Notes: generated by a model from the letters alone, not told the origin. DNA of 64,000 bases from a virus (IMGVR_UViG_3300037420_001376:8329-72328), one strand, 5' to 3'; positions 18,350-36,206 are shown, numbered from the stretch's first letter. Made by a program: numbers and translations.

Positions 18350-19042
18350 TTACGGAGTCGCGTCAAGAACATTAACGATTAAACGATCTTTTTCTGCGGT
18401 ATGTCCAACATAAACACCGTCAGAACCCTTTGTTGCGGTAACGGAACCGTCAGCATGTGCGTAATAATTCTGACCTGCAACCGGAGTGGTTGCACCAGCG
18501 GTTACCGTTGCACCGGTTCCTGCAGCTAAAGTAAATCCATCGGCCACTTGCGCCGAAAAATTAGGTGCAGTTCCAGTAACAGTGACATCGGCATCAACCA
18601 TATTGTCGTCAACGGCAACAATTGCTGCCTCAACAGCAGTATTAGTTGCGTTAAACGCAATATTGCCGGTAACTTTTCCGTTTACCGTTAAAGTGAAGCT
18701 GCCAGAACCAACGGTTACAACAATCGCGTAAGTACCGTCAGCTGGATTTGCAACAAAGTTAACGATTTCACCATGTTTGCCAACGTCACATGGATCACCA
18801 GATTGGTTATTAATTCCACCGTCTAAAAGGTTTCCATGAATATCTGCGCCAACCGGCACAATCATTAAACCTTTAATTCCGGTTTGACCACTTCCGATTA
18901 CAACTGCACCATCAGAATTTAATCCGACACCGAGAACCACATTGGCTTCAGTATCTAAATCAATATCTTCGGCCAGAACACCACGAAAGTTGCCCATGTA
19001 GCCGTCGTATTTATCCCAACGCGGCTTAGTCGCCAGAGCCAT
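18350..19042 (-). CDS. Capsid decoration-like protein with inserted beta-rich domain, 230 aa
   Basis: Between scaffold and capsid; RWDKYDG...FRG N-terminus; internal GSFTLTVNGKVTGNIAFNATNTAVEAAI segment. Confidence 0.6.
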   Translation of the reverse strand: MALATKPRWDKYDGYMGNFRGVLAEDIDLDTEANVVLGVGLNSDGAVVIGSGQTGIKGLMIVPVGADIHGNLLDGGINNQSGDPCDVGKHGEIVNFVANPADGTYAIVVTVGSGSFTLTVNGKVTGNIAFNATNTAVEAAIVAVDDNMVDADVTVTGTAPNFSAQVADGFTLAAGTGATVTAGATTPVAGQNYYAHADGSVTATKGSDGVYVGHTAEKDRLIVNVLDATP

Positions 19043-19119: not shown

Positions 19120-19884
19120 TCACCCTAAAGCTGCACGTCCAGAAGCAATCACCGGCCACTTGGCTTCCAGTTCCTTGCGGCGTTGGGCTGCAGTGGGATT
19201 GGTCGGTGCCGGTCCTGGGGGATTTCCGGTAGAACGGCGTTGACGCGATGGTGGCGGATTATCGTCAATCGTGGGCTTTTTCACCAAATATGGATAATCT
19301 TTAGCAATACGAGAAAGTTCATTTTCAATACCACTAGCTGTTGCTCTTCCGGCTTCTAAATCAACCTCAAGATCATAACCACCGGCGTCTAATTTAGAAA
19401 TCACATCATCGACATTATGAAATTGAAGATTCTCATTTCCCTGAATTGCGTTCACCACTGCAAGGCGCTTAATAACTTGATCCATACGATCAATTGTTTC
19501 CTGAGCCTTAGTTAAATCCTCAGTTAAGGCTTCTTCGCGACCAAGGCTTTTCTTGCGCTCGTCCTCTTCTTTAGTCTGATATCCTTGAAGCGTCTGAGTA
19601 AGCTCAGTATTTTTCTGAGTTAATTGAGCAACCTGCGTAGTTAATTGCGCAAATTGTTCTGGCGTAATTTCTTTTGTACCATCCCCGCCACCTGAACTTG
19701 TGGCACTATCGTCAGGATCACCAGAAGGTTTATTTTCGGCGGGAGTAGAACCAGCGGGCTCGGCTGAGGTTCCACCGAAAATCGGCAAAGCTGCTTTAGC
19801 TGCTTCTAAAGAATTAATCTTTACAGAAAAATCAAAACTATTTGCAGGTGTTAATCCGCTGTATTTGGTTTGGAAGGGCATCAT
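19120..19884 (-). CDS. Scaffolding protein (start uncertain, 19884-19926)
   Basis: Acidic/Gly linker, coiled-coil middle, Pro-rich C-terminus; upstream of capsid. Confidence 0.8.
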   Translation of the reverse strand: MMPFQTKYSGLTPANSFDFSVKINSLEAAKAALPIFGGTSAEPAGSTPAENKPSGDPDDSATSSGGGDGTKEITPEQFAQLTTQVAQLTQKNTELTQTLQGYQTKEEDERKKSLGREEALTEDLTKAQETIDRMDQVIKRLAVVNAIQGNENLQFHNVDDVISKLDAGGYDLEVDLEAGRATASGIENELSRIAKDYPYLVKKPTIDDNPPPSRQRRSTGNPPGPAPTNPTAAQRRKELEAKWPVIASGRAALG

Positions 19885-19915
19885 TTCATGTTCTTTCATG
19901 GGCTGGGTAGAGCGT

Positions 19916-20848
19916 TTACGCTGCATTGCTAATCCAATCGTTATAGTACCCGGCTGTCAAGTTTCTAGTGAACACATCAAGAGATTCGACCTGCGGTGTC
20001 ACAAAGCACCGGCATTGCGGGTGGGGTTTGGGAGGTACGTTGTCAACGTCAAACAATTGTTCTTTGTAACGATCACAAATTTCTATTACGCCATCTTCAA
20101 TTTCATGCGTTTGTGAAGTGTGCCAAACCATGCCTTGAACCCATGGACGATCTTGTGCAAGTGCAACACTAGTAGCATGAAAAGCATTATTAAGCTCGGT
20201 GCGACCGAGACGAAGGGCAGCATAACTGACCCCACCAGGGGTATTTGGCCTAATTGATCTTCTAACTTTTTCTGCAATTTCTTTCGCACTAGCGCCCCTA
20301 ACTATTCCAGAATTAATTTCTCTTTGCACCCACGTATTTGCCATACGCCGGGTTCGATAAACTCTAGTAGATAATGGCTGATTTGATTTTTCGAGGCGCG
20401 ACACCAAGTTTGCCACTGATAATTCTGCCTGCACGTATTGGGATTGAATAAAGCCCTCAACGTTCCCTCTAGAGTTTTTAGCTGATTCAGCGAAAGCTCT
20501 GGAAAGAAAGTCTCTATCAGTTTCTGAGAAGGCAGTAACGGCTGCTCTAGCGGATTCTTTAGACCCGGCAGTAATGAGGGGGATTTGTTTTTTGAAGAGG
20601 TCATTGAGAACCTCGTTGACTATTTTCATCACTAGTCGCAATTGCGCAGTGCGGACACCCGATGAAAAAGTTGAGTTTGTGCTCAAAGCAGAGACTTCTT
20701 GTGCTGCATCTTGCGCTGCTTGGATTAATGCGGTACGAACCTTTGTATCGTGCCGGGACTGTATCATCAGATATTTCGTAAGCCATCTTTTCCTCAAAGT
20801 TTCAAAATCATCATTTAAACCCCCATCTAACGGAGTCGGCCTAGTCAC
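19916..20848 (-). CDS. MuF-like head morphogenesis protein, 310 aa
   Basis: LRLGRTE and C-terminal ICD...PHPQCRC motifs. Confidence 0.85.
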   Translation of the reverse strand: MTRPTPLDGGLNDDFETLRKRWLTKYLMIQSRHDTKVRTALIQAAQDAAQEVSALSTNSTFSSGVRTAQLRLVMKIVNEVLNDLFKKQIPLITAGSKESARAAVTAFSETDRDFLSRAFAESAKNSRGNVEGFIQSQYVQAELSVANLVSRLEKSNQPLSTRVYRTRRMANTWVQREINSGIVRGASAKEIAEKVRRSIRPNTPGGVSYAALRLGRTELNNAFHATSVALAQDRPWVQGMVWHTSQTHEIEDGVIEICDRYKEQLFDVDNVPPKPHPQCRCFVTPQVESLDVFTRNLTAGYYNDWISNAA

Positions 20849-21281
20849 CCAGTAACCTCCACTCCGTTACGTCACCCCTGCTGACCAGGAAATACCGCCA
20901 ACCCAGCGCCGGATTGGGCCAACCCACCAGATCACGCGGGCTCGGCCAGGGGTAGCCGTTGGGATGGGTATGATAAATACCTAAAATCTCAGTTTGCTTT
21001 TTTCCATAAATTTCGTCTAACACCCATTCAGTGTCTTTTGGGTGCATATAAAAATTCATGCGCGGTTCTAAATGTGAATTTAAAACACCGATCACTTCAA
21101 ATTCAGACGTAATGAATCCGCATCGTTCTTCTGAATGTCTAAAGCACTCGTCCAATAATTCAGAACGAGTGCTTTCAGGCAAAGGATTATGAGAGTAGAA
21201 AAGCTGTTCGGCTTGTCTACCCTTAGATGAAATTAAATAATTACTATGTCCAGGGTGCGCTGGATTATTAAGGTCCAACAT
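20841..21281 (-). CDS. JAB/MPN (JAMM) metalloprotease, 146 aa
   Basis: Upstream E (EERCG) plus exact H-x-H-x7-S-x2-D motif (HTHPNGYPWPSPRD). Confidence 0.85.
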   Translation of the reverse strand: MLDLNNPAHPGHSNYLISSKGRQAEQLFYSHNPLPESTRSELLDECFRHSEERCGFITSEFEVIGVLNSHLEPRMNFYMHPKDTEWVLDEIYGKKQTEILGIYHTHPNGYPWPSPRDLVGWPNPALGWRYFLVSRGDVTEWRLLGD

Positions 21282-21293
21282 GATGCTCCGCGT

Positions 21294-21869
21294 CTACTTA
21301 CCACGTCTTTGTGGCCTAACTACTTTTTTACCAGCAATGGCTCGCATTCTCGTGTCGTATTTTTTCACCCCTTTTCGAGTCTGAGTAAGCGGTGTTTTAT
21401 GCTTCCCACGACGTAAAATAATCGTAGGACCGGCTCCGCGAGAACTACCAAGGCGAGCCTGGTGTCTACCGACATTTGCTCGAATTGTGGGATTTGTAAT
21501 CGTAACGTTTTCTTTGAAATATTTCCTGACTTTACCTCGGGTAGTTCCATAGGGCATCGCCTTATTTCCAGCTTTAGCTAATGCTTTATCGATTGCGCCT
21601 TTACGGTTGGTGTTTTCGACCCGAACGTATCCACCAAACACAAGGCGTTTGCCAGTTCCAGGCAAAATTGAGCCGGTATTAAATCCTGCAGTTTGGCTCC
21701 TTTTATTGGCTCGAAGATATGGCACAGTGTTTTTTGTAAAACCATGCTTACCAACCCCACGAGTTACAGGATTACTACCATATAATCTTTTAGACTTTCT
21801 TTTACGTGCTCTACGAGCCTTTGCTAGCGCTGCCGCTCTAGCAGGTGTAAAGACATAGGCTCTAGTCAT
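21294..21869 (-). CDS. Highly basic protein, array member, type A motif, 191 aa
   Basis: YVFTPARAAALAKARRARKRK N-terminus. Confidence 0.8.
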   Translation of the reverse strand: MTRAYVFTPARAAALAKARRARKRKSKRLYGSNPVTRGVGKHGFTKNTVPYLRANKRSQTAGFNTGSILPGTGKRLVFGGYVRVENTNRKGAIDKALAKAGNKAMPYGTTRGKVRKYFKENVTITNPTIRANVGRHQARLGSSRGAGPTIILRRGKHKTPLTQTRKGVKKYDTRMRAIAGKKVVRPQRRGK

Positions 21870-21871
21870 GA

Positions 21872-22240
21872 TTACCGCACTCTACTACGAATTCTTGTTC
21901 CTGTGTGCCTACCAGAGATGTGTGTTGCTCGCCCACGACCGTAGTAACGGAGCGGTTTATGATTTGAACGCAAAGCCACGCCGGGGGCATTTGGATCGAC
22001 CCGTGGTCCTTTAGATAAATAACCTTTGACCGCTTTATAATGTTTAGGAACTAATTGAGGATTGCGTGCATAATTATTTGCATGATGAACTAAAGCACCT
22101 ACGGCAACCGTACCCGCCACGGAGCCAACAGCTTTTAATCCACCAATAACAGCGCGTTTACGCCTTTTTCGTGCGCTCGCTTTTTGTGCTCGTGCTAAAG
22201 CTGCGCGACGTGCAGGGGTCATGCGATAGCGTTTAGCCAT
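21872..22240 (-). CDS. Highly basic protein, array member, type A motif, 122 aa
   Basis: YRMTPARRAALARAQKASARKR followed by Gly/Ala/Val hydrophobic stretch. Confidence 0.8.
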   Translation of the reverse strand: MAKRYRMTPARRAALARAQKASARKRRKRAVIGGLKAVGSVAGTVAVGALVHHANNYARNPQLVPKHYKAVKGYLSKGPRVDPNAPGVALRSNHKPLRYYGRGRATHISGRHTGTRIRSRVR

Positions 22241-22241
22241 A

Positions 22242-23036
22242 TTATTCTCCGAAGTCTTTAATCCACTGCTCTAAAGCTTTAGCCTCAAGAGTTTGTTTTG
22301 GTTGGCCCTTGCGCGTAACACCTGCACGAGAATTAACTGGTTTAATGGGTGGCTTTTTACCTTTTAATTTCTTACCGGCATATACGCGAGTCACCGAACC
22401 GTCAGCGATCATGGAATGCAAAATGCCAGAAGCATCAACATCTTCGCCAGTAATTTTTCCTTTAGCCTGCGCATGTGCGTCTACTGCACGAGAAGCGGCA
22501 TTGCCGGTAACTCGCTTTCCATAAACCAAACCTTTAACGCCTTTAGGTAAAAATTTATCAACGTTATATGGCCGATCAGAACCGGAAATAAGTTTATTGG
22601 TAACTTCTACATCTCGTTGTTGACGTGGGAAAGCATTATTGCGCGATGGATCAACAATATTGGGATTAACTTTTCCAAGGTCAATGCGCGTCATGGTTTT
22701 TGCGCCCTTGGTAGCAGCGGTTTTCTTGGTAGGCTTTTTAATTAAATTTCCACCAATAGCATTGGCTAAACGAACTCGTTCTTTAGAACCCGGTTGCACT
22801 GCGGCTTTCCAACGAACCGAAGTTGCCTGAATACTGGATCTATTTTTATATCCATAGATCGCTGCGGCTCCGACACCAGCAATGGTTGCGCCGACAATTG
22901 CACCTTTAATCGCTGAATTGCGGCGGCCCTTGCGTTTTCTCGCGCTAATTGCCTGCGCTCGTCTAAGCGCGACAGCACGCTTTTGTGTATATCTATATTG
23001 GCCTCGCCGCACATTTCGCCCTCGTTTCTTAGCCAT
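22242..23036 (-). CDS. Highly basic protein, array member, type A motif, 264 aa
   Basis: YRYTQKRAVALRRAQAISARKR plus hydrophobic stretch. Confidence 0.8.
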   Translation of the reverse strand: MAKKRGRNVRRGQYRYTQKRAVALRRAQAISARKRKGRRNSAIKGAIVGATIAGVGAAAIYGYKNRSSIQATSVRWKAAVQPGSKERVRLANAIGGNLIKKPTKKTAATKGAKTMTRIDLGKVNPNIVDPSRNNAFPRQQRDVEVTNKLISGSDRPYNVDKFLPKGVKGLVYGKRVTGNAASRAVDAHAQAKGKITGEDVDASGILHSMIADGSVTRVYAGKKLKGKKPPIKPVNSRAGVTRKGQPKQTLEAKALEQWIKDFGE

Positions 23037-23704
23037 TATCGCCTCTTTAAGTTTCTCAAGTAAACATCTAAAGGTTGACCATTGACTGTTGCCACACTTC
23101 TTGGTCGTTTCGGAACGAATTTTTTATCTTTGTAGTCATCACTTAATCGAATATCTCGACTGGGCAAACTAACCGATTTTCCTTTAGCAAAAGTATATCC
23201 CGGAAAAATCTCTTTTCCACCAAGTGTTTTAATTGGTGTTTCTTTAGGTAATCGTTTACCACCAGAACCATATCCACGAGTGGATTCTTTTCTATACTTT
23301 GGTGCAAATGGATTCTCAAAATGCTGACTGGCTAAAAGTCTATTGGTAGTTGTAGTGCCCAAAACCTGCTTCATGGTTACCGGAGAGTGATTATAAGAAA
23401 GCCTTGTTTTAGTTGCACCTTTAGCACGAATTAAAGAAGCACCAGCTCTATTAACCGCAAATCGTGTACCACTAGGCAACTGTTTTCCTGTGACACTAGA
23501 AACGTTGGCGTGTGTGGTTTTAGAAAAACTAGAGCCCGAAAGACGATGGCGGGCAACAACACCTGCTGTCGTTAAAGCGCCAACACTGACGGCACCAACG
23601 CCAATAGCAATTCTGCGATTACGCTTCTTGCGTGCTTGAACTAAATTCCTACGCGAAGCAACACGCTGTCTTGCAGTAGTTCTTTTACGTCTACGACTAG
23701 CCAC
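23036..23704 (-). CDS. Highly basic protein, array member, type B motif, 222 aa
   Basis: TARQRVASRRNLVQARKKR plus hydrophobic stretch. Confidence 0.8.
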   Translation of the reverse strand: MASRRRKRTTARQRVASRRNLVQARKKRNRRIAIGVGAVSVGALTTAGVVARHRLSGSSFSKTTHANVSSVTGKQLPSGTRFAVNRAGASLIRAKGATKTRLSYNHSPVTMKQVLGTTTTNRLLASQHFENPFAPKYRKESTRGYGSGGKRLPKETPIKTLGGKEIFPGYTFAKGKSVSLPSRDIRLSDDYKDKKFVPKRPRSVATVNGQPLDVYLRNLKRR

Positions 23705-24146
23705 GTCTTGCTCGCTTTCGTCTTTGTGTTCTCGGGCTCATTCCATCATATTTAGAACGAATCTTTTTCTCATAACCTGGCACCAATCCGGCTCTGCGCT
23801 TTGCATCATATAAACCACGCGGCCTACGCACATACGTTGCCTCACCAGAAGAATTAACTTTAAATGCACCTTTTCGCGCAGGAATTGGCCGTTTAACAGT
23901 ACGAACTTTGGTGACATTTCTGCCCGGTGGCAAAGCTAATTGATGGGTGGGATGAAAAGCAGATGGGCGATATGGCCTGCGTAAATGATTAACGTAGCTT
24001 CTACCGGCTACACCCAAAACCGTTGCGGCACCAATGGTTCCAACAATACCTGCGCCAATGGCAATTCTTTTATTTCTTTTACGGCGCGCAGCAATCAAGT
24101 TGCGCCGTGACGCAACTCGCTGTTTTGCACTACGCCGTTTAGCCAT
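23697..24146 (-). CDS. Highly basic protein, array member, type B motif, 149 aa
   Basis: SAKQRVASRRNLIAARRKR plus hydrophobic stretch. Confidence 0.8.
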   Translation of the reverse strand: MAKRRSAKQRVASRRNLIAARRKRNKRIAIGAGIVGTIGAATVLGVAGRSYVNHLRRPYRPSAFHPTHQLALPPGRNVTKVRTVKRPIPARKGAFKVNSSGEATYVRRPRGLYDAKRRAGLVPGYEKKIRSKYDGMSPRTQRRKRARRG

Positions 24147-24367
24147 TAACGTCTACGTCTGCGCTTTCTGTTCTCAATATCATTAATCTCTTTAAGATTA
24201 ACGATCATACCCGCCACGCCTAAAGTGGCTTTATTTCCAGCCCTACGAACACCTTTAGCAATCCAATAACCAACCTGATTTTTGGCGCTGGTGTGTTTCT
24301 TTCGCGCAGAAATCCTTTGGGCCTTTAAAATGGATTGCCTTCGTTTAGGCGTTAAACGATAGGCCAT
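24146..24367 (-). CDS. Highly basic protein, array member, type A motif, 73 aa
   Basis: YRLTPKRRQSILKAQRISARKK; TAATG coupling at both ends. Confidence 0.75.
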   Translation of the reverse strand: MAYRLTPKRRQSILKAQRISARKKHTSAKNQVGYWIAKGVRRAGNKATLGVAGMIVNLKEINDIENRKRRRRR

Positions 24368-24726
24368 TATCGCCTCTGCTTTGCATAAGCGCTATAAACT
24401 TGAGCGTGGGTTAAGTGCTTTACTTTCTTTTTAGATGTTTTGCGCTTCTTTGGTCGTAAAACCCCAACAGCAACGTTGTGTCTACCTACGCGACCACGAA
24501 CGGCAACATGTTGAGAGCTTCTATGAGCACTAATTCTTTTAGTTTTCTTTCTAGACTTAGAATGAGAAACTTGTGCTCGATAACCTTTTTTATGCGCTAA
24601 ATATGCAGCACCACCTGCTAACGCAACACCGGTGGCTACTCCTGCAGCTATACGACGTCTGCGTCGTTTCTTTCGGGCTTTTTCTAGATTTCTCCTAGAA
24701 GCAGCTTTTTGCCTAGCGGTCGCCAT
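24367..24726 (-). CDS. Highly basic protein, array member, type B motif, 119 aa
   Basis: TARQKAASRRNLEKARKKR; 38 K/R against 1 acidic residue by hand count. Confidence 0.8.
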   Translation of the reverse strand: MATARQKAASRRNLEKARKKRRRRRIAAGVATGVALAGGAAYLAHKKGYRAQVSHSKSRKKTKRISAHRSSQHVAVRGRVGRHNVAVGVLRPKKRKTSKKKVKHLTHAQVYSAYAKQRR

Positions 24727-24727
24727 A

Positions 24728-25165
24728 TTAATATCGCGTTCTTACAGAAACCGATCCATGACGGCTTGCAACAAACACACGATTATGCTTGGTAGCACCG
24801 CGACTACGCGCGACGGGGCGTGTATTTGAATAGTGCACTCTGCGCTTTTTATCTTGCTTTAAATGTGCGGCATAGTCGTTATAGAACTTTTTAGAATTAG
24901 CGCTGTACTTTTTAGCAGCGGCTTGGCCTTTTTTATGTTTGCCATAAGCGTGTGCAACATGGGCTGCGCCATAAGCGACTAATGCAGCGCCAGCAACATA
25001 ATTTCCAGCATTGCGCCGTAAATGTCCTTTTACGCCACCACCAGAAATTTTACGATTGGCAGCGGCTAATTTGCCTTTACCTTTTCCACGGCGTTTTCGT
25101 GCAGAAGCGGCTTGAGCTTTTTTCAACGCCGCTCTACGAGCAGGCGTCATTCGATGTGCTGCCAT
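24728..25165 (-). CDS. Highly basic protein, array member, type A motif, 145 aa
   Basis: HRMTPARRAALKKAQAASARKR plus hydrophobic stretch. Confidence 0.8.
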   Translation of the reverse strand: MAAHRMTPARRAALKKAQAASARKRRGKGKGKLAAANRKISGGGVKGHLRRNAGNYVAGAALVAYGAAHVAHAYGKHKKGQAAAKKYSANSKKFYNDYAAHLKQDKKRRVHYSNTRPVARSRGATKHNRVFVASRHGSVSVRTRY

Positions 25166-25332
25166 TATCGCCGCCTAACAGTAAACCTCGGTCCACCACC
25201 AATAAATAATAAGTACACCCCATACACACACAGCAATATCCCAGCAATGAGCAGAATAATATGCAATACGTAGGGCATTACGACTAAAAAAGCGATAAGT
25301 AAACAGGCGATTCCAGCAAGTAACGCTCCCAT
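25165..25332 (-). CDS. Small two-TM membrane protein, 55 aa (below ORF-track cutoff)
   Basis: Hand translation MGALLAGIACLLIAFLVVMPYVLHIILLIAGILLCVYGVYLLFIGGGPRFTVRRR; TAATG coupling at both ends. Confidence 0.75.
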   Translation of the reverse strand: MGALLAGIACLLIAFLVVMPYVLHIILLIAGILLCVYGVYLLFIGGGPRFTVRRR

Positions 25333-25517
25333 TAGCGTCTACCTTTCTTTCCAGAATGCTTGGATTCGGGCAGGCGGCGATACCTTATTTTTTTGCCGCC
25401 TTTAGTGCGATGGGCCATGCGATGCGCGAATTCTTTTTTGTTCGCGAAAGCCCATTTCCATTGCTTTTTCGAGAAGAAGCCAGTTTTGCGACCTTTACGC
25501 TTTTTCTTTTTTGCCAC
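25332..25517 (-). CDS. Small basic protein, 61 aa
   Basis: FFSKKQWKWAFA motif; first gene after portal. Confidence 0.75.
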   Translation of the reverse strand: MAKKKKRKGRKTGFFSKKQWKWAFANKKEFAHRMAHRTKGGKKIRYRRLPESKHSGKKGRR

Positions 25518-25556: not shown

Positions 25557-27209
25557 CTACGCGGTCACACCCAAATCAACGGTTTGCTCATCCGGCGTGT
25601 TGGGCACGGGATTGCCCTGGTCATCGACGCTTTGGCCCTGATCTTGGCCACCTGCGCCCAACGCGAACGGATCTAGCGCTGCGGCCTGGGCAGCACTTTG
25701 AGATACCAACATTTCTGCTAAATCATCATCGGTTAACGGATTTCCCAAAGCATCATGAGTTGGCCACTTCCATCCTAATTCTCTTAGCTTTTGAATCATC
25801 ATTACTGTGAGAATCATATTGGATGAATATAAAAGTTGTGTCTCGGTGATTTCAGTATCACGGTTTTTCGGCATGGGATCATCAAACACACACACCACGG
25901 TAAGCTCTGCCATTTTTGCCGCATCGCCAAACATTTCTGGCTCATAGGCGGGCAACCATTGCGTGGTAATATCGAAATGCATCTGATCTAAAATCATGAG
26001 CATTTCAAGTTCTAGCTCTTCATTAGACGCCAACAAAGGCATCATTTGAAGTTGTAGCGATATTCCGCTTTCAGCAACCGCCACATCAACGCGACCAATC
26101 GCAATTTCAGGCGTACCTGAAGATTCGCTAATACCTTTTTCATCAATCCAATTCATGTGTTCTTGGAATGGGGAAACCGAATCCACACCAGTAACTTTGT
26201 CAAATTTCTGTTCTTGACCAATTTCAATGACTTGTTTCGGCCCAATATTCCAATCGGTGGGATTGCCATTATCATCTTTGGGTCTACCGGCAGTGGTGAC
26301 ATACATGCCCAAACCCTGAAAAACAATGGTGCAATCTTCATCCGTTAAAGATTGATTGATCGCATAAAGGAGTGTTTCAAGCCCCGTAAGTATAGAGTGT
26401 CCCCAAGTAGAATTTTGAGGCGCTCTTGTTCTCCATTTATAGATGGGAAGATTTGTGATGGGCACAGAATCAGACCCAATGAATTCCGGATCTTCGTCTT
26501 GATCACTATTGACAACTCGTTCTTGGTCTTCACGAGCTTTAACACTGCGATCATCCCATTTCCCTAATTCATAAAACTTCAGTTCGCTAGTGACGCCAGT
26601 GACCGTGCCGGTTTCATCATAGACTTTGCGAAAAGTACGAACTTTAGCCACTTGCTTATCGGGCTTATCCGGTTCACGGAAGTCCTGAACTTTTTCAACA
26701 ATATGATAACCACTTACTTCTTTGGCATCATGGGGAGACTCATTGATTTCAAAGATAAATCGGGGATCGAGTTCTTCGATACAAATTCGTTTTCCAGAAG
26801 TTTTATTAGGTTTGGCGTATACATAAAAGGCTGCATCTCCACGGACGAGGCCCCATCGTTTGTTTGACTCAAATTTACTCCTAATGCCTTCGCGCTTATA
26901 CGTATCTGCCCACCAAGCATCAACTGCTAATTGTGCAGCTTCATCACCAGTAGCATCAACAAACCATTGAAGATTTTTACCAAGAAAACGAGTAGTCGCC
27001 TCTACAATCTTTTTAGCATTGGGAACAATCAGGGGAACTTGATCTTCACCACGTAAATTCAGCGCAAGATTTATAGTAGAGTTAATATATAAATCTTCGT
27101 AATAATCGTACGCCTGAATGCGCTTTAAATCCCACGGGTCAACAATATTATCGTCGCCAGTTGTCAAAAAATCTAAAGCGGCTTCATATTGCTTATTATT
27201 GTAGGGCAT
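25557..27209 (-). CDS. Portal protein, 550 aa
   Basis: Follows terminase; RIQAYDYYEDLY and AESGISL motifs. Confidence 0.9.
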   Translation of the reverse strand: MPYNNKQYEAALDFLTTGDDNIVDPWDLKRIQAYDYYEDLYINSTINLALNLRGEDQVPLIVPNAKKIVEATTRFLGKNLQWFVDATGDEAAQLAVDAWWADTYKREGIRSKFESNKRWGLVRGDAAFYVYAKPNKTSGKRICIEELDPRFIFEINESPHDAKEVSGYHIVEKVQDFREPDKPDKQVAKVRTFRKVYDETGTVTGVTSELKFYELGKWDDRSVKAREDQERVVNSDQDEDPEFIGSDSVPITNLPIYKWRTRAPQNSTWGHSILTGLETLLYAINQSLTDEDCTIVFQGLGMYVTTAGRPKDDNGNPTDWNIGPKQVIEIGQEQKFDKVTGVDSVSPFQEHMNWIDEKGISESSGTPEIAIGRVDVAVAESGISLQLQMMPLLASNEELELEMLMILDQMHFDITTQWLPAYEPEMFGDAAKMAELTVVCVFDDPMPKNRDTEITETQLLYSSNMILTVMMIQKLRELGWKWPTHDALGNPLTDDDLAEMLVSQSAAQAAALDPFALGAGGQDQGQSVDDQGNPVPNTPDEQTVDLGVTA

Positions 27210-27218
27210 CGCACTAGC

Positions 27219-28871
27219 CTACTTGCTCATCCAGTTAGACCTGCGCTTATTAGTGTGGCGTGTCGCAATCCCAGCAGGTGTCGACCCATACCCATCACCA
27301 GTTCTATACCGGGTATTTCCCAGATTCGACAGAAACTTAGCCTTAGAAATTCTAGTACCACCACCATACTGTTCAGAAGCACTGTGGTAACGACTTGCTA
27401 AAAATCTACCTAAAGCTTCTGGCGTATGGTCATCTTTTTTGAGTGGTAATTCAAACCTTTTAACCGAAGTTTCTTGTTGCTCGTCCTTTTTCTCAGGATA
27501 CCGGTATTCACCGAATTCATATATCGTATGTGGACATTTGGTCGAAATCATTAATCTTGGTCTTTTAACATCCTGCCTCGGAGGATGAGATTTCCAATTT
27601 GTCTTATTGACTTCCGTATCGTTTACTCGATCTTTTAACGCTAAGCGAATAAGGTTGAGTCGATCTTGTAATTCGCCGCCGGTGTGGGGCCTAGCTCTAA
27701 TTTGTTTCCCAGCTCGCAAAAATATATTTTCCAAGGTTCTGGTATCCCCGGGTAGTGCAGGGTCGGGGAAGAATTCTTGACAGCTATCGGGTAACAAGCC
27801 TCTTCGGAGAACTTCTTTTGCGAATTCATCAGGCGCTAACGTGTCTTGATATAATTCATCGATAACATTTATTTCACCCCAAGGACCAATTTGAATAAGC
27901 AGCCATACCGAAGGATTGCGATATCCATAGTCAACAGCAGCCACCGTTTCCCAACTCGGATTGTATGGTAATAGTCGAGTGTGTGTCTCTTCGTTGTATT
28001 CCTTAAATACCTTTCCAACGAAATCTGTAAAGTCAGCGGCAATTTCCTGCTGAAACTTAGGGATGGTAAGGGCATCTGCTTGAACCACGATTTCTGAATC
28101 AATTGTCAATCCTTGCATGGCAACTATTTCAGCAGCGGTGTATTCAGGGTTTTCCTGCATCATGTAAAGCATTTGCTTCACATGAGCATCAACAGTTTCT
28201 TCAAGATAAACGTATGGATTATACCAACTAGGAATTCTATGAGCGCTCCATAATTCTTTCCTACGAGCGTCCATAAATAACTTATAAAACCAATTTTTAC
28301 CTTCTGGTGTGGAAGTGAATTTAGCCCATCCCTTATTATCCGAAAGCGACGGCATCACATACTGCGTCCACACCTCTTCTTTAAGTTTTGCCGCCTCTTC
28401 CATATGCACACCGCTTAACGCCTCGCCAACCAGCGTGTCAGGGTGCTGTGCAGATTTTGCGCTATAAATAAAACGACCATCCCACAATGAGATAGTCATT
28501 TGGCCAGAACCAGGAGAATTATATGATCCTGGTTTATCCATGGGAATTTCTAATCTACGACATAAATCCCAAAAGACACGAAAGGGCTTCTCAGAGTCAG
28601 AATACTGTGGACCTACTGACCAAAATTCTCTACGCTTGCCTTCGGCTTTTAAATGATGAGCGATCTTTTGAGTCAGTGCCGCTTCTGGCAATAACTCATT
28701 GGCCACCATTTTAGATTTACCAAAACGTCGTCCACAAGAGGCAACCAAAAAACGGGCTGGATCTTCCATTAAACGCAATTGTGCGCGATGAGGATCGAAG
28801 ACTTTTTCTTCTCTACCGTTTTCTGGATTTACATAATCTCTATCCAGTATGGCCCACTTTGAGAATCCCAT
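27219..28871 (-). CDS. Terminase large subunit, 550 aa
   Basis: Walker A CGRRFGKS, Walker B HMEEAA, STPEG motif III, nuclease AVDYG...DDHTPEA. Confidence 0.95.
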   Translation of the reverse strand: MGFSKWAILDRDYVNPENGREEKVFDPHRAQLRLMEDPARFLVASCGRRFGKSKMVANELLPEAALTQKIAHHLKAEGKRREFWSVGPQYSDSEKPFRVFWDLCRRLEIPMDKPGSYNSPGSGQMTISLWDGRFIYSAKSAQHPDTLVGEALSGVHMEEAAKLKEEVWTQYVMPSLSDNKGWAKFTSTPEGKNWFYKLFMDARRKELWSAHRIPSWYNPYVYLEETVDAHVKQMLYMMQENPEYTAAEIVAMQGLTIDSEIVVQADALTIPKFQQEIAADFTDFVGKVFKEYNEETHTRLLPYNPSWETVAAVDYGYRNPSVWLLIQIGPWGEINVIDELYQDTLAPDEFAKEVLRRGLLPDSCQEFFPDPALPGDTRTLENIFLRAGKQIRARPHTGGELQDRLNLIRLALKDRVNDTEVNKTNWKSHPPRQDVKRPRLMISTKCPHTIYEFGEYRYPEKKDEQQETSVKRFELPLKKDDHTPEALGRFLASRYHSASEQYGGGTRISKAKFLSNLGNTRYRTGDGYGSTPAGIATRHTNKRRSNWMSK

Positions 28872-35216: not shown

Positions 35217-36173
35217 GCTGTTGATTGAACGGGTCACAGCAAACCCGGTGAGAACACGAAAGACGGCAGAGGCATCCCCGAAGCACGCGCTCACCGGGTC
35301 TGAACTTTCATAACTCCATCGAAAAGCTTTGGGGCATGGCCCTATAACTACGGGCAACCGTAGGAAAGGCTGGCATGACACCCGGCCACTACACCCTCTC
35401 GCCTTCGGGCGAAAGGCTCTGTAGCAAACCATGCACGGCAGTCCTTAAAAATTCAACTGAGGTTGGATTTGGATATCGACCGGAACTGTGTGAAACACCA
35501 ACTAGCGTAAAAAACTAGAGTTTCAGCCATTGCGAGAATGCGGCAAGTTGGCAGCAGGGAAAAGGAAGATAATCTTGGAGTGCGGGGAACGTTTTTAAAA
35601 CTGCGAGTAGGCATACAAGTGGGCGTTTCAGGAAATTCTGGGCTAGGCAGGCATGTCTAGGAAGTACAGAAAAGTACAGAGAAAGTAGACCGCAAATCGA
35701 AATCTCCGTTGGCGTGAAGCATTCCGTAGCTTAAAAGGGTACGGAACTTCATGGGGAAGCACGTCAACAGTCCGGAGTTATCCGTTAAATATCACACGCT
35801 GTGTTAGCTCAATTTGGCGAGAGCATTCTGTTAGGGACAGAAATGTTGGTGGTTCGATTCCTCCACACAAAAAGCAAAAGTCTTTCCCCTTCGTTAACGA
35901 AAGCGTCATCTAAGCCGTAGCGCGTAAGCGAACTACGGAATCTCTGAGCCGCAAGCAATATGGGATTTTCATAAACAAGTAGTTGTAGGCAGTGGGCGGC
36001 CACCTATTGTTGAAACGAAAGTTGTGGAGTAGTTAACGAGAGAAAACGAGTGGTTTACGTTCCCCACTAAAAACTACTTCGGTAGGTTTGAAAAGGAAAA
36101 CAAACCGGGCGTGGTGATTACAAGTGAGAGCTTGTGGAAAAGTTGCTAAACCATAAGGCAACGAAAGATCACT
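35217..36173 (+). ncRNA. Candidate large structured ncRNA (GOLLD/ROOL-like class) with embedded tRNA-like domain
   Basis: About 1.1 kb without a credible ORF; many hairpins and junctions; cUUCGg x2, GCAA, GTAA and GAGA tetraloops and G-U pairs valid only on +; ends at a terminator. Confidence 0.72.
35798..35872 (+). tRNA. Degenerate tRNA-Pro-like element, anticodon AGG
   Basis: D-arm GCTC/GAGC, anticodon stem TTCTG/CAGAA with loop TTAGGGA, T-loop TTCGATT; only 5 of 7 acceptor pairs, no CCA. Confidence 0.7.
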
Positions 36174-36206
36174 AAAAGAGGCGGGTATTCTCACCGCCTC
36201 TTTTTT
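36174..36206. terminator. Bidirectional intrinsic terminator
   Basis: AAAAGAGGCGG / CCGCCTCTTTTTT; T-runs on both strands, between the ncRNA (+) and gene 36232 (-). Confidence 0.85.

What the first reader, a model, noticed from the sequence alone, without database searches (positions are those of the whole stretch)
21294..25165. Tandem array of eight paralogous ultra-basic proteins between portal and head genes
Seen: 3.9 kb of abutting or coupled genes (73-264 aa). Five share (Y/H)-x-(M/L/F/Y)-T-(P/Q)-(A/K)-R..A(L)..A(Q/R) followed by SARK or a basic run; three share (T/S)A(R/K)Q(R/K)xASRRNLxxAR(K/R)KR. Most continue with a K/R run, a ~20-aa Gly/Ala/Val hydrophobic stretch and an unrelated basic C-terminus. 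One member has 38 K/R and one acidic residue in 119 aa. Established: T4 internal proteins share a short N-terminal capsid-targeting sequence with variable cargo; protamine-like core proteins condense viral DNA. Inference: a family of encapsidated DNA-condensing or ejected proteins whose conserved N-terminus is a packaging signal and whose hydrophobic segment may engage the host membrane during entry. They are also candidate ligands of the large ncRNA or JAB substrates (speculative).
Basis: partly seen in the sequence, partly recalled or inferred. Interest (0 to 1): 0.8.

Follow-up and report, generated by a model that had tools for sequence, protein, structure and literature searches.

The report
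Address-tagged ultra-basic phage head proteins
An uncultured relative of mycobacteriophage Patience has eight adjacent genes for extremely basic proteins that all begin with the same short helix; in Patience the matching proteins are in the virion, so they are probably packed in the head with the DNA, and the family is large and undescribed.

Summary
Eight abutting minus-strand genes (21294-25165) lie between portal and JAB/MuF/scaffold. They encode proteins of pI about 12 and net charge +19 to +46. Five start with Y-R-M-T-P-A-R-R-A-A-L-R-K-A-Q-x-A-S-A-R-K-R-R. Three start with the variant T-A-R-Q-R-x-A-S-R-R-N-L. The motif is not a composition effect: real scores are 19-46 bits, shuffles reach 10 at most. 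Codons differ between paralogues, so selection acts on the peptide.

A profile search found 956 protein clusters with the motif, nearly always at the N-terminus. In the related phage loci fetched, these genes lie between portal and MuF, in 1-10 copies.

The window is a complete 72-kb uncultured phage related to Mycobacterium phages Patience and cluster H. Patience has the same array (gp11-gp18). Published mass spectrometry found the genes inserted between portal and protease, gp9 excepted, in purified virions, with gp15 (probable counterpart of window A6) among the three most abundant proteins.

Some relatives carry an ADP-ribosyltransferase-like fold behind the same tag, as T4 Alt does.

Best reading (about 0.55): internal head proteins loaded through a shared address helix, binding packaged DNA and probably ejected with it. 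Head-internal location, tag function and ejection are inferred. The links to GOLLD RNA and to JAB substrates are not supported.

The parts
24728..25165 (-). A1, 145 aa, net +35; type-1 tag (aa 4-25, nt 25091-25156), GKGKGK linker, weak hydrophobic stretch (aa 56-68)
   Evidence: 46 bits. Shares ARKRRGKGKGKLAAANRK with Patience gp11. Hits phrog_28158, unknown function.
24367..24726 (-). A2, 119 aa, 38 K/R and 1 acidic; type-2 tag (aa 2-23, nt 24658-24723); hydrophobic segment aa 26-44 (nt 24595-24651)
24146..24367 (-). A3, 73 aa, net +19; type-1 tag (aa 3-24, nt 24296-24361); only a 10-aa uncharged stretch
   Evidence: 35 bits. Close counterpart at L008 726-965.
23697..24146 (-). A4, 149 aa, net +38; type-2 tag (aa 5-26, nt 24069-24134); hydrophobic segment aa 28-48 (nt 24003-24065)
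   Evidence: KD19 hydropathy 2.01.
23036..23704 (-). A5, 222 aa (GTG start), net +41; type-2 tag (aa 9-30, nt 23615-23680); hydrophobic segment aa 32-51 (nt 23552-23611)
   Evidence: The tail is weakly similar to L008 1948-2613 and L013 755-1390.
22242..23036 (-). A6, 264 aa, net +43; type-1 tag (aa 14-35, nt 22932-22997); hydrophobic segment aa 45-63 (nt 22848-22904); probable counterpart of Patience gp15
   Evidence: Shares the AVQPG(S/A)KE..R(L/V)A signature after the hydrophobic segment, and has a similar size and rank in the array. gp15 is one of the three most abundant Patience virion proteins (PMC4324244).
21872..22240 (-). A7, 122 aa, net +29; type-1 tag (aa 5-26, nt 22163-22228); hydrophobic segment aa 37-51 (nt 22088-22132); short conserved tail (N-Y-A-x-N-P)
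   Evidence: (phrog_38146, 6.5e-12). Counterparts lie immediately upstream of the A8 homologue in Patience (gp17) and other loci.
21294..21869 (-). A8, 191 aa, net +46; type-1 tag (aa 5-26, nt 21792-21857) followed by a conserved basic domain of about 150 aa; no hydrophobic segment
   Evidence: phrog_12708, 1.3e-64; A1 alignment. AF2 model pLDDT 72. No known fold or protease fold found. Orthologue of Patience gp18.
25332..25517 (-). Context: 61-aa ultra-basic protein (26 K/R), no tag; conserved partner gene right after portal
   Evidence: (phrog_1375, 4e-25). Counterpart of Patience gp10.
25165..25332 (-). Context: 55-aa strongly hydrophobic ORF between the 61-aa gene and A1
   Evidence: KD19 hydropathy 2.83. 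No family found.
25557..27209 (-). Context: portal gene, upstream boundary of the array
   Evidence: collinear and similar to Patience gp8.
19916..21281 (-). Context: JAB/MPN gene (20841-21281) and MuF-like gene (19916-20848), downstream boundary of the array
   Evidence: Prok-JAB 7.5e-10; Phage_Mu_F 2.2e-5.

Best explanation
The eight genes encode virion proteins that are built into the phage head and stay there with the packaged DNA. Each is a three-part protein. First comes a helix of about 22 residues with an almost invariant sequence, the address tag. Next comes a short K/R linker and, in most members, an uncharged Gly/Ala/Val segment of 15-21 residues. Last comes a divergent, strongly basic tail. 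I propose that the shared helix binds one common partner during head assembly, so that every paralogue, whatever its tail, is loaded. I propose that the basic tails lie on the DNA and neutralise part of its charge. I propose that the small-residue hydrophobic segment drives self-association or capsid tethering inside the head and may insert into the host membrane when the proteins leave with the DNA. Shown: paralogy, the modular architecture, purifying selection on the tag, conserved placement in the head module across many phages, and (from the literature) virion association of the Patience homologues. Inferred: location inside the head, the role of the tag, DNA binding, ejection.
For: Gene position and translational coupling inside the head module. 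The same array is present in Patience as gp11-gp18. PMC4324244 reports that every gene inserted between portal and protease, except 31-aa gp9, was detected in purified particles, and that gp15 is one of three major SDS-PAGE bands. A6 is the probable counterpart of gp15. The 2.4 A Patience capsid paper describes the shell as major capsid protein, a trimeric minor capsid protein and gp4, and never mentions gp15. An abundant virion protein that is not described in the ordered shell fits an internal location. The tag is highly constrained: T, R, A, A-L, K, A, Q, S, A, K, R are 96-100% conserved in the top 150 cluster representatives, and 956 clusters match at E<=1e-3. The tails are mostly unrelated, and codons for identical tag residues differ among paralogues. 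Tag variants swap on the same cargo: the A8-family domain carries type 1 in the window and Patience but type 2 in L018, L015 and P0041. Some relatives carry an ADP-ribosyltransferase-like tail behind the tag: conserved Y-H-x-T and Y-F-S motifs, an ESM lead to Tox-ART-HYD1, and a VIA top hit on the diphtheria toxin catalytic domain at Z 6.9, rmsd 3.6, 90 aligned, with about 40 of 50 rows being ART folds. That matches the logic of T4 Alt, a packaged and injected enzyme. AF2 predicts the tag as a helix with pLDDT about 82-85.
Against: There is no direct data for this phage. The Patience mass spectrometry was done on whole virions, so it does not separate head from tail or inside from outside. The abundance of gp15 rests on an SDS-PAGE band assigned by size. 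Outside the Patience-like lineage the motif sits at the C-terminus (L039-41, L049) or at aa 32-38 (L051, L053) of basic proteins encoded next to a different terminase. That argues for a position-independent ligand common to unrelated phages, perhaps DNA itself, rather than a lineage-specific assembly partner or a cleaved N-terminal signal. No cleavage site is known. The resemblance to the scaffold C-terminus is weak: shuffle p is 0.24 for the window's own scaffold. Patience already packs about 0.54 bp/nm3 (my arithmetic from the diameter and genome size in PMC11965321), which leaves limited room for much internal protein.
Confidence: 0.55

Rival explanations
1. Phage protamines with no address function. 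The conserved helix is itself a nucleic-acid-binding arginine-rich helix. The proteins simply coat and condense the genome, in the manner of adenovirus VII/mu or phiX174 J. They enter the head because they bind DNA or the capsid interior non-specifically.
For: Extreme charge throughout the proteins. The motif occurs at C-terminal or internal positions in basic proteins of unrelated phage lineages next to terminase, which suggests a universal ligand such as DNA. The conserved residues form an R / small-residue / R stripe along one helix face, compatible with lying in a DNA groove.
Against: Generic DNA binding does not need near-invariant T-P, A-A-L, A-Q and S-A positions across 956 clusters. 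Protein cannot follow DNA through the portal, so loading must happen at prohead assembly and needs some protein contact (established knowledge of tailed-phage assembly). The enzyme-like ART tail in relatives fits delivery better than condensation.
Confidence: 0.22
2. Ejection or pilot proteins whose main job is membrane penetration. The Gly/Ala/Val segments assemble into a channel in the host membrane for DNA entry, as T7 gp14-16, P22 gp7/16/20 and phiX174 H do. On this view the charge is secondary.
For: 33 of 66 members in related loci and 89 of 150 representatives have an uncharged segment of 15-23 aa that is about 65% small residues. KD19 hydropathy reaches 2.0. The segment often ends in Tyr. 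The Patience homologues are virion-associated.
Against: A8, A3 and many relatives lack the segment yet keep the tag. These are long-tailed siphophages in which the tape-measure protein usually provides the conduit (general knowledge). gp15-like abundance is far above the 10-30 copies usual for pilot proteins.
Confidence: 0.13
3. External capsid decoration or cement proteins, as proposed for Patience gp15 in 2020.
For: PMC7150772 listed gp15 as a candidate minor capsid or decoration protein on the basis of its abundance.
Against: That paper noted that the gp15 model did not fit the density. The later 2.4 A paper assigns the chasm density to gp4, describes a separate minor capsid protein family shared with Adjutor, and does not mention gp15. 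Eight paralogues with net +19 to +46 on a capsid exterior would be very unusual.
Confidence: 0.03
4. Non-structural late proteins of the producing cell, for example membrane-anchored lysis, exclusion or assembly factors, that contaminate virion preparations.
For: A hydrophobic segment with a more positive N-flank (+7 to +10 against +2 to +5) would allow N-in membrane anchoring.
Against: Every array member in Patience was found in CsCl-type purified particles, and one of them is a major band. The strongly basic tails would have to cross the membrane. The genes are embedded in the head operon in every relative.
Confidence: 0.05

Closest known systems
Bacteriophage T4 internal proteins IPI/IPII/IPIII and Alt with the N-terminal capsid targeting sequence (CTS)
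   Same: Several paralogous or unrelated cargoes share a short N-terminal tag. The proteins are basic, sit in the head with the DNA and are injected. One cargo, Alt, is an ADP-ribosyltransferase, which matches the ART-like tail found here in relatives. This is established T4 knowledge (reviews PMC3012670 and PMC7697877, listed).
   Different: The T4 CTS is about 10 residues, unrelated in sequence, and is removed by the gp21 prohead protease. Here the tag is a 22-residue Arg/Ala helix and cleavage is unknown. It is followed by a hydrophobic segment, and the hosts are siphophages of the Patience/cluster H type. No sequence homology was found.
Mycobacteriophage Patience gp11-gp18 (Pope et al. 2014, PMC4324244)
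   Same: True homologues in the same order and position. A8 is 53% identical to gp18. A1 pairs with gp11, A6 with gp15 and A7 with gp17. All were detected in virions.
   Different: The paper treats them as unrelated 'orphams' inserted in the structural operon. It does not describe the shared tag, the paralogy or the charge. The window's phage has 44% GC, eight members, and three type-2 tags against one in Patience (gp12).
phiX174 protein J, and adenovirus core proteins VII, V and mu
   Same: Very basic small proteins packaged with the genome to neutralise charge. J combines a basic DNA-binding part with a hydrophobic part that tethers it to the coat protein (established knowledge; not tested here).
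   Different: No homology. These are single genes rather than an array, with no shared address tag, in different virus groups. Comparable condensing proteins are not established for tailed phages apart from the T4-type internal proteins.
MuF-domain polymorphic toxins and phage polyvalent proteins (Iyer et al. 2017, PMC5512222, named in earlier scan notes)
   Same: A constant head-associated N-terminal module with swappable C-terminal effectors that are delivered with the DNA.
   Different: In those systems the carrier is a folded MuF or other domain on one large protein. Here the carrier is a short helix on many small separate proteins, most of which have no recognisable enzyme.
P22 scaffolding protein C-terminal coat-binding helix, and encapsulin cargo-loading peptides
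   Same: A short, partly basic peptide is enough to load cargo into an HK97-fold shell (established knowledge). The scaffolds of this phage lineage end in a conserved ..RRxxLxKKFPVIxHGR motif whose RRxAL core weakly resembles the tag.
   Different: The resemblance is statistically weak: median shuffle p is 0.036 for a 7-mer core and 0.24 for the window's own scaffold. It is a lead only.

Membership tests
T4-type internal proteins with CTS | N-terminal CTS consensus of about 10 aa, cleaved after Glu by the gp21-type prohead protease | tested here: not met
   The N-termini read MA..Y-R-M-T-P-A-R-R-A-A-L-R-K-A-Q... There is no Glu-terminated T4-like leader. No gp21-type (U9/S21-like) protease was recognised in the head module. 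Cleavage itself cannot be tested here.
T4-type internal proteins with CTS | Protein is located inside the mature head and ejected with the DNA | not testable with these tools
   There is only indirect support. The Patience homologues are in purified virions (PMC4324244), and gp15 is not mentioned in the paper describing the ordered shell.
Any curated protein family (Pfam-A, NCBIfam) | Score above the curated threshold for any of the eight proteins | tested here: not met
   The best Pfam hits are 11-16 bits, all below their cut-offs. NCBIfam gives nothing above cut-off. PHROGs places the proteins in several 'unknown function' families: 28158, 38146, 31200, 32594, 32101, 35890.
Capsid maturation protease (the GenBank/RefSeq/PHROG 12708 label of the A8 family) | Recognisable protease fold or catalytic motif (HK97 S78, ClpP/S49 or herpesvirus-like S21) | tested here: inconclusive
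   No Pfam hit. The AF2 model (pLDDT 72) has no Foldseek PDB match at E<=1e-3. The best VIA hits are partial beta-barrels at Z<=5.2, and no protease appears among the 50 rows. No conserved Ser/His/Asp/Cys triad appears among the invariant columns. The label has no support, but absence of a match is not proof.
ADP-ribosyltransferase superfamily (tail of the tagged relatives at L022 480-1058, L023 140-868 and L008 4776-5432; not present in the window) | ART split beta-sheet fold | tested here: met
   AF2 domain residues 61-150, pLDDT about 62-78. VIA top hit: diphtheria toxin catalytic domain, Z 6.9, rmsd 3.6, 90 aligned. About 40 of the 50 rows are ART folds, including ExoA, TreTu, RhsP2, Arr, KptA, ParT, PARPs, PT and LT. 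Foldseek's top rows are also ARTs but non-significant. Moderate confidence only, since Z is below 8.
ADP-ribosyltransferase superfamily (same relatives) | Catalytic H-Y-E/D or R-S-E triad | tested here: inconclusive
   Y-H-x-T is invariant on the first strand, and (Y/W/F)-F-(S/T) is conserved on a later strand. No invariant acidic third residue was found. Pfam Tox-ART-HYD1 appears only as an ESM-feature lead at 0.89, not as an HMM hit.
Bitopic membrane proteins | Hydrophobic helix of about 20 residues with charge asymmetry that allows insertion | tested here: inconclusive
   KD19 hydropathy is 1.5-2.0 in five members. The segments are about 62% Gly/Ala/Ser/Thr. Both flanks are positive: +7 to +10 on the N side and +2 to +5 on the C side. 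No transmembrane predictor was available.

The most novel reading that the evidence does not exclude
A widespread, undescribed cargo-addressing system of tailed phages. One 22-residue Arg/Ala helix, found in at least 956 protein clusters and in several phage lineages, directs a variable set of 1-10 protamine-like proteins, and sometimes enzymes such as an ADP-ribosyltransferase, into HK97-fold heads. There they would form a protein-DNA 'phage chromatin' that is delivered to the host. If so, the helix would be a natural, portable encapsidation tag.
Probability: 0.3. Interest if true: 0.8.

Novelty: new variant of a known kind. Interest (0 to 1): 0.62.

Why it matters
Internal head proteins are well studied only in T4, P22/T7-type podophages and jumbo phages. 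For ordinary siphophages they are almost unknown. This report defines a large protein family: at least 956 clusters at 50% identity, no Pfam or NCBIfam model, and 'unknown function' in PHROGs. Its defining feature is a near-invariant address helix on otherwise unrelated, ultra-basic proteins. The family has a tractable cultured representative, Patience in M. smegmatis, whose homologues are already known to be in virions. This makes several questions directly testable. How are proteins loaded into HK97-fold heads without a T4-type CTS? Do tailed phages use protamine-like charge neutralisation to reach high packing density? The Patience capsid is discussed in the literature purely in terms of shell reinforcement. 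Can the helix serve as an encapsidation tag? The report also corrects a propagated database label, 'capsid maturation protease', for the A8/gp18 family.

Tried and rejected
1. Megablast of 10 kb against cultured phages found no match. tblastn with A7 found none either, probably because of the low-complexity filter.

2. A single-protein scan of viral contigs with A8 found nothing. The alignment-based scan worked.

3. Pfam and NCBIfam gave nothing above threshold for the eight proteins.

4. For A8, Foldseek against PDB and the VIA wide search gave only weak partial beta-barrel resemblances. The protease label was therefore rejected as unsupported.

5. GOLLD as a partner: present in this genome but absent from five complete relatives that carry arrays. 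Rejected as a general link.

6. The scan of bacterial and archaeal genomes for the tag gave 162 pattern matches, none confirmed. No prophage copies were seen, so no host could be inferred. The query was only 40 aa, so power was limited.

7. The scaffold C-terminus as the source of the tag gave only a weak signal and is kept as a lead.

8. The ART-like tail had no Pfam hit, no PDB sequence hit and no further homologues in the word-based search. The fold evidence rests on an 8-sequence AF2 model.

9. Gene conversion as the cause of tag identity was rejected, because synonymous codons differ.

The genomic context of the 956 representative hits could therefore not be sampled beyond the IMG/VR loci.

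11. Patience Table S1 (spectral counts) is not held.

Full report
WHAT IS THERE

The window is the larger part of a 72,328-bp IMG/VR virus record that CheckV rates as complete. Its GC content is about 44%, and all genes in this region are on the minus strand.

Reading the minus strand, the order is:
- terminase (27219-28871)
- portal (25557-27209)
- a 61-aa ultra-basic gene (25332-25517)
- a 55-aa very hydrophobic ORF (25165-25332)
- eight genes, here called A1 to A8 (25165 down to 21294)
- a Prok-JAB/MPN gene (20841-21281)
- a MuF-like gene (19916-20848)
- the scaffold gene (19120-19926)
- the homologue of the Patience minor capsid protein (18350-19042)

A1 to A8 abut or overlap by -8 to +2 nt. 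They are 73-264 aa long, 22-32% Lys+Arg, with pI 11.3-12.0 and net charge +19 to +46. One copy of each protein adds up to +288.

THE SHARED MODULE

A1, A3, A6, A7 and A8 begin, after 2-13 residues, with Y/H-R/V-M/L/F/Y-T-P/Q-A/K-R-R-A-A-L-R/K-K/R-A-Q-x-A/I-S-A-R-K-R-R (type 1). A2, A4 and A5 begin with T/S-A-R/K-Q-R/K-x-A-S-R-R-N-L-x-x-A-R-K/R-K-R (type 2).

This is not a composition effect:
- A profile built only from other phages' copies scores the five type-1 proteins at 19-46 bits. 500 composition-preserving shuffles of each protein never exceed 10 bits.
- A profile built from the window's five copies finds 55 more ORFs on the coding strand of related loci and none among 1472 opposite-strand ORFs. 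Every hit starts at residue 3-23.
- Among paralogues, identical tag residues mostly use different codons, for example 4 of 12 to 8 of 19 identical. The paralogues are therefore old, and the peptide, not the DNA, is under selection.

Types 1 and 2 are variants of one module:
- Intermediates exist, such as M-T-A-R-Q-R-A-A-L-R-K-A-Q in Patience gp11 and Barnyard.
- The conserved A8-family domain carries type 1 in the window and Patience but type 2 in L018, L015 and P0041.

After the tag come a K/R run and, in A2, A4, A5, A6 and A7, an uncharged Gly/Ala/Val/Thr segment of 15-21 residues. Its KD19 hydropathy is 1.5-2.0, about 62% of its residues are small, and it often ends in Tyr. The segment is weak in A1 and A3 and absent in A8. 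AF2 predicts the tag as a helix with pLDDT about 82-85.

RELATIVES

A8 is 53-56% identical to proteins of Mycobacterium phages Patience (cluster U) and Predator, Konstantine, Barnyard and Damien (cluster H).

Patience has the same block: portal gp8, small basic gp10, then gp11, 12, 13, 14, 15, 17 and 18 carrying the tag (gp12 has type 2), then JAB gp19, MuF gp20 and scaffold gp21. Individual members correspond:
- A1 and gp11 share the GKGKGKLAAANRK linker.
- A6 and gp15 share AVQPG(S/A)KE..R(L/V)A after the hydrophobic segment, and have a similar size and rank in the array.
- A7 corresponds to gp17.
- A8 corresponds to gp18.

Two scans of IMG/VR gave about 40 loci. Almost all have the same head module, with 1 to at least 10 tagged genes. 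The genes always lie between portal and MuF, occasionally on either side of JAB.

Apart from the A8 family and a few small groups, the tails are unrelated at BLAST level.

A profile of 51 tag segments, searched against 1.84 billion cluster representatives, found 956 clusters at E<=1e-3. The top 150 are 49-322 aa long with a median net charge of +37. In all but three the tag starts within the first 20 residues (P0104 at 87, P0217 at 36; P0152 starts at residue 19), and 89 have the hydrophobic segment. In these 150, positions T6, R9, A12, L13, K15, A16, Q17, S20, A21, K23 and R24 are 96-100% conserved.

None of the eight proteins reaches a Pfam or NCBIfam threshold. PHROGs splits them over several 'unknown function' families. 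No confirmed copy was found in one genome each of 185,579 prokaryote species, though the query was short.

In three other phage lineages (L039-41 and L049; L051; L053) the same motif sits at the C-terminus or at residue 32-38 of an ultra-basic protein. In the two examined (L049 and L051) that gene lies directly after a different large terminase.

WHAT THE LITERATURE ADDS

Pope et al. 2014 (PMC4324244) analysed purified Patience particles by HPLC-MS/MS. [quoted passage not shown] They also state that gp15 (32 kDa), the capsid subunit and the major tail subunit likely account for the three major SDS-PAGE bands. They call most of these genes orphams and do not describe a shared motif.

Podgorski et al. 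2020 (PMC7150772) considered gp15 as a capsid accessory protein but noted that the model did not fit the density.

The 2025 paper on the 2.4 A structure (PMC11965321) describes the shell as major capsid protein, a trimeric minor capsid protein and gp4, and never mentions gp15.

An abundant virion protein that is not described in the ordered shell is what an internal, non-icosahedral protein would look like. This is an inference, not a demonstration.

ENZYME CARGO IN RELATIVES

Eight tagged proteins share a tail with invariant Y-H-x-T and a conserved (Y/W/F)-F-(S/T). They are L008 4776-5432, L022 480-1058, L023 140-868, P0170, P0172, P0185, P0216 and P0252.
- Pfam and PDB sequence searches found nothing.
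- ESM features gave a weak lead to Tox-ART-HYD1.
- The AF2 model is modest (mean pLDDT 58; domain about 62-78).
- The unbiased VIA search put the diphtheria toxin catalytic domain first (Z 6.9, rmsd 3.6, 90 residues aligned). About 40 of its 50 rows are ADP-ribosyltransferase folds.

I take the fold as probable and catalytic competence as open, because no invariant acidic residue was found. The window has no such member. The finding still bears on the tag: the same address heads both protamine-like tails and an enzyme-like domain, as in T4, where the CTS heads both the internal proteins and Alt.

MECHANISM

The most likely reading, at about 0.55, is as follows. These are head-internal proteins. 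The helix is a common address or anchor that binds one partner at prohead assembly. The basic tails lie on the DNA. The small-residue hydrophobic segment mediates self-association or tethering, and possibly membrane insertion after ejection.

The arithmetic, which is my own, runs like this. The genome carries about 144,656 phosphate charges. If A6 were as abundant as the roughly 415 capsid subunits, it alone would neutralise about 12% of them.

The main rival, at about 0.22, is that the helix is itself a DNA-binding arginine-rich helix and no specific address exists. The position-independent occurrence of the motif in unrelated phages favours this rival. The near-invariance of non-basic positions, and the need to load protein before DNA, argue against it.

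A pilot or channel role is the next rival, at about 0.13. An external decoration role and a non-structural role are unlikely.

GOLLD RNA is found in this genome (E 4.8e-56) but in none of five complete array-bearing genomes, so the array does not depend on it.

Nothing links the array to JAB beyond shared membership of the head module.

The 'head/capsid maturation protease' label on the A8/gp18 family in GenBank, RefSeq and PHROG 12708 has no support from Pfam, Foldseek or VIA.

LIMITS

There is no experimental data for this phage. Patience spectral counts are not held. The ART model rests on only eight sequences.

The scan has noted similar 'shared tag plus variable cargo' arrays with different tags in other phages. 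Those notes are unchecked leads and were not used as evidence.

Noticed in passing
window 25332-25517 (-): A 61-aa ultra-basic protein (26 K/R, pI 12) without the tag. It belongs to phrog_1375 and is the homologue of Patience gp10. It is conserved directly after the portal gene in most related loci (FxSKxQWxWAF...GGKKxRYRRLP). Function unknown.
   Followed up: partly
window 25165-25332 (-): A 55-aa very hydrophobic ORF (KD19 hydropathy 2.83) inside the head operon, translationally coupled to both neighbours. No family found.
   Followed up: no
window 21294-21869 (-) and homologues (alignment A1): The A8/gp18 family is labelled 'head/capsid maturation protease' in RefSeq, GenBank and PHROG 12708. 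It has no protease motif or fold in Pfam, Foldseek or VIA searches, so this is probably a propagated mis-annotation.
   Followed up: yes
L022 480-1058, L023 140-868, L008 4776-5432: Tagged proteins in related phages carry a C-terminal domain with conserved Y-H-x-T and Y-F-S motifs. The predicted fold is ADP-ribosyltransferase-like (diphtheria toxin catalytic domain, Z 6.9). No acidic third catalytic residue was identified.
   Followed up: partly
L039 1004-1495, L040 3532-4056, L049 6611-7120, L051 2139-3128, L053 6893-7489: The same K-M-T-x-A-R-K-A-A-L-K-K-A-Q-x-A-S-A motif occurs at the C-terminus or at aa 32-38 of ultra-basic proteins in unrelated phage lineages of 36-44% GC. In L049 and L051, the two loci examined, the gene follows a different large terminase directly.
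   Followed up: partly
window 19120-19926 (-) and scaffold homologues in L008-L045: Scaffold proteins of this lineage end in a conserved ..K-A-x-R-R-x-x-L-x-K-K-F-P-V-I-x-H-G-R motif. Its RRxAL core weakly resembles the array tag: median shuffle p is 0.036, and 0.24 for the window's own scaffold.
   Followed up: partly
L001 12477-13679 (Patience gp23): The published cleavage of the Patience capsid protein lies between Q82 and I83. It is not at the PIFGG|T motif that other notes on this genome propose as a JAB cleavage site. Cleavage at FGG|T would leave 41.9 kDa, not the reported 35.3 kDa.
   Followed up: partly
G000 C1 44035-44525 (window about 35707-36197): GOLLD RNA (RF02032, 191.7 bits) is present in this genome. 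It is absent from Patience, Konstantine, Predator, Barnyard and one complete uncultured relative.
   Followed up: yes
L014 8701-9885: In one relative the A8-like ORF reads on into JAB-like sequence, giving 394 aa. This is a natural fusion, a frameshift or an assembly error.
   Followed up: no
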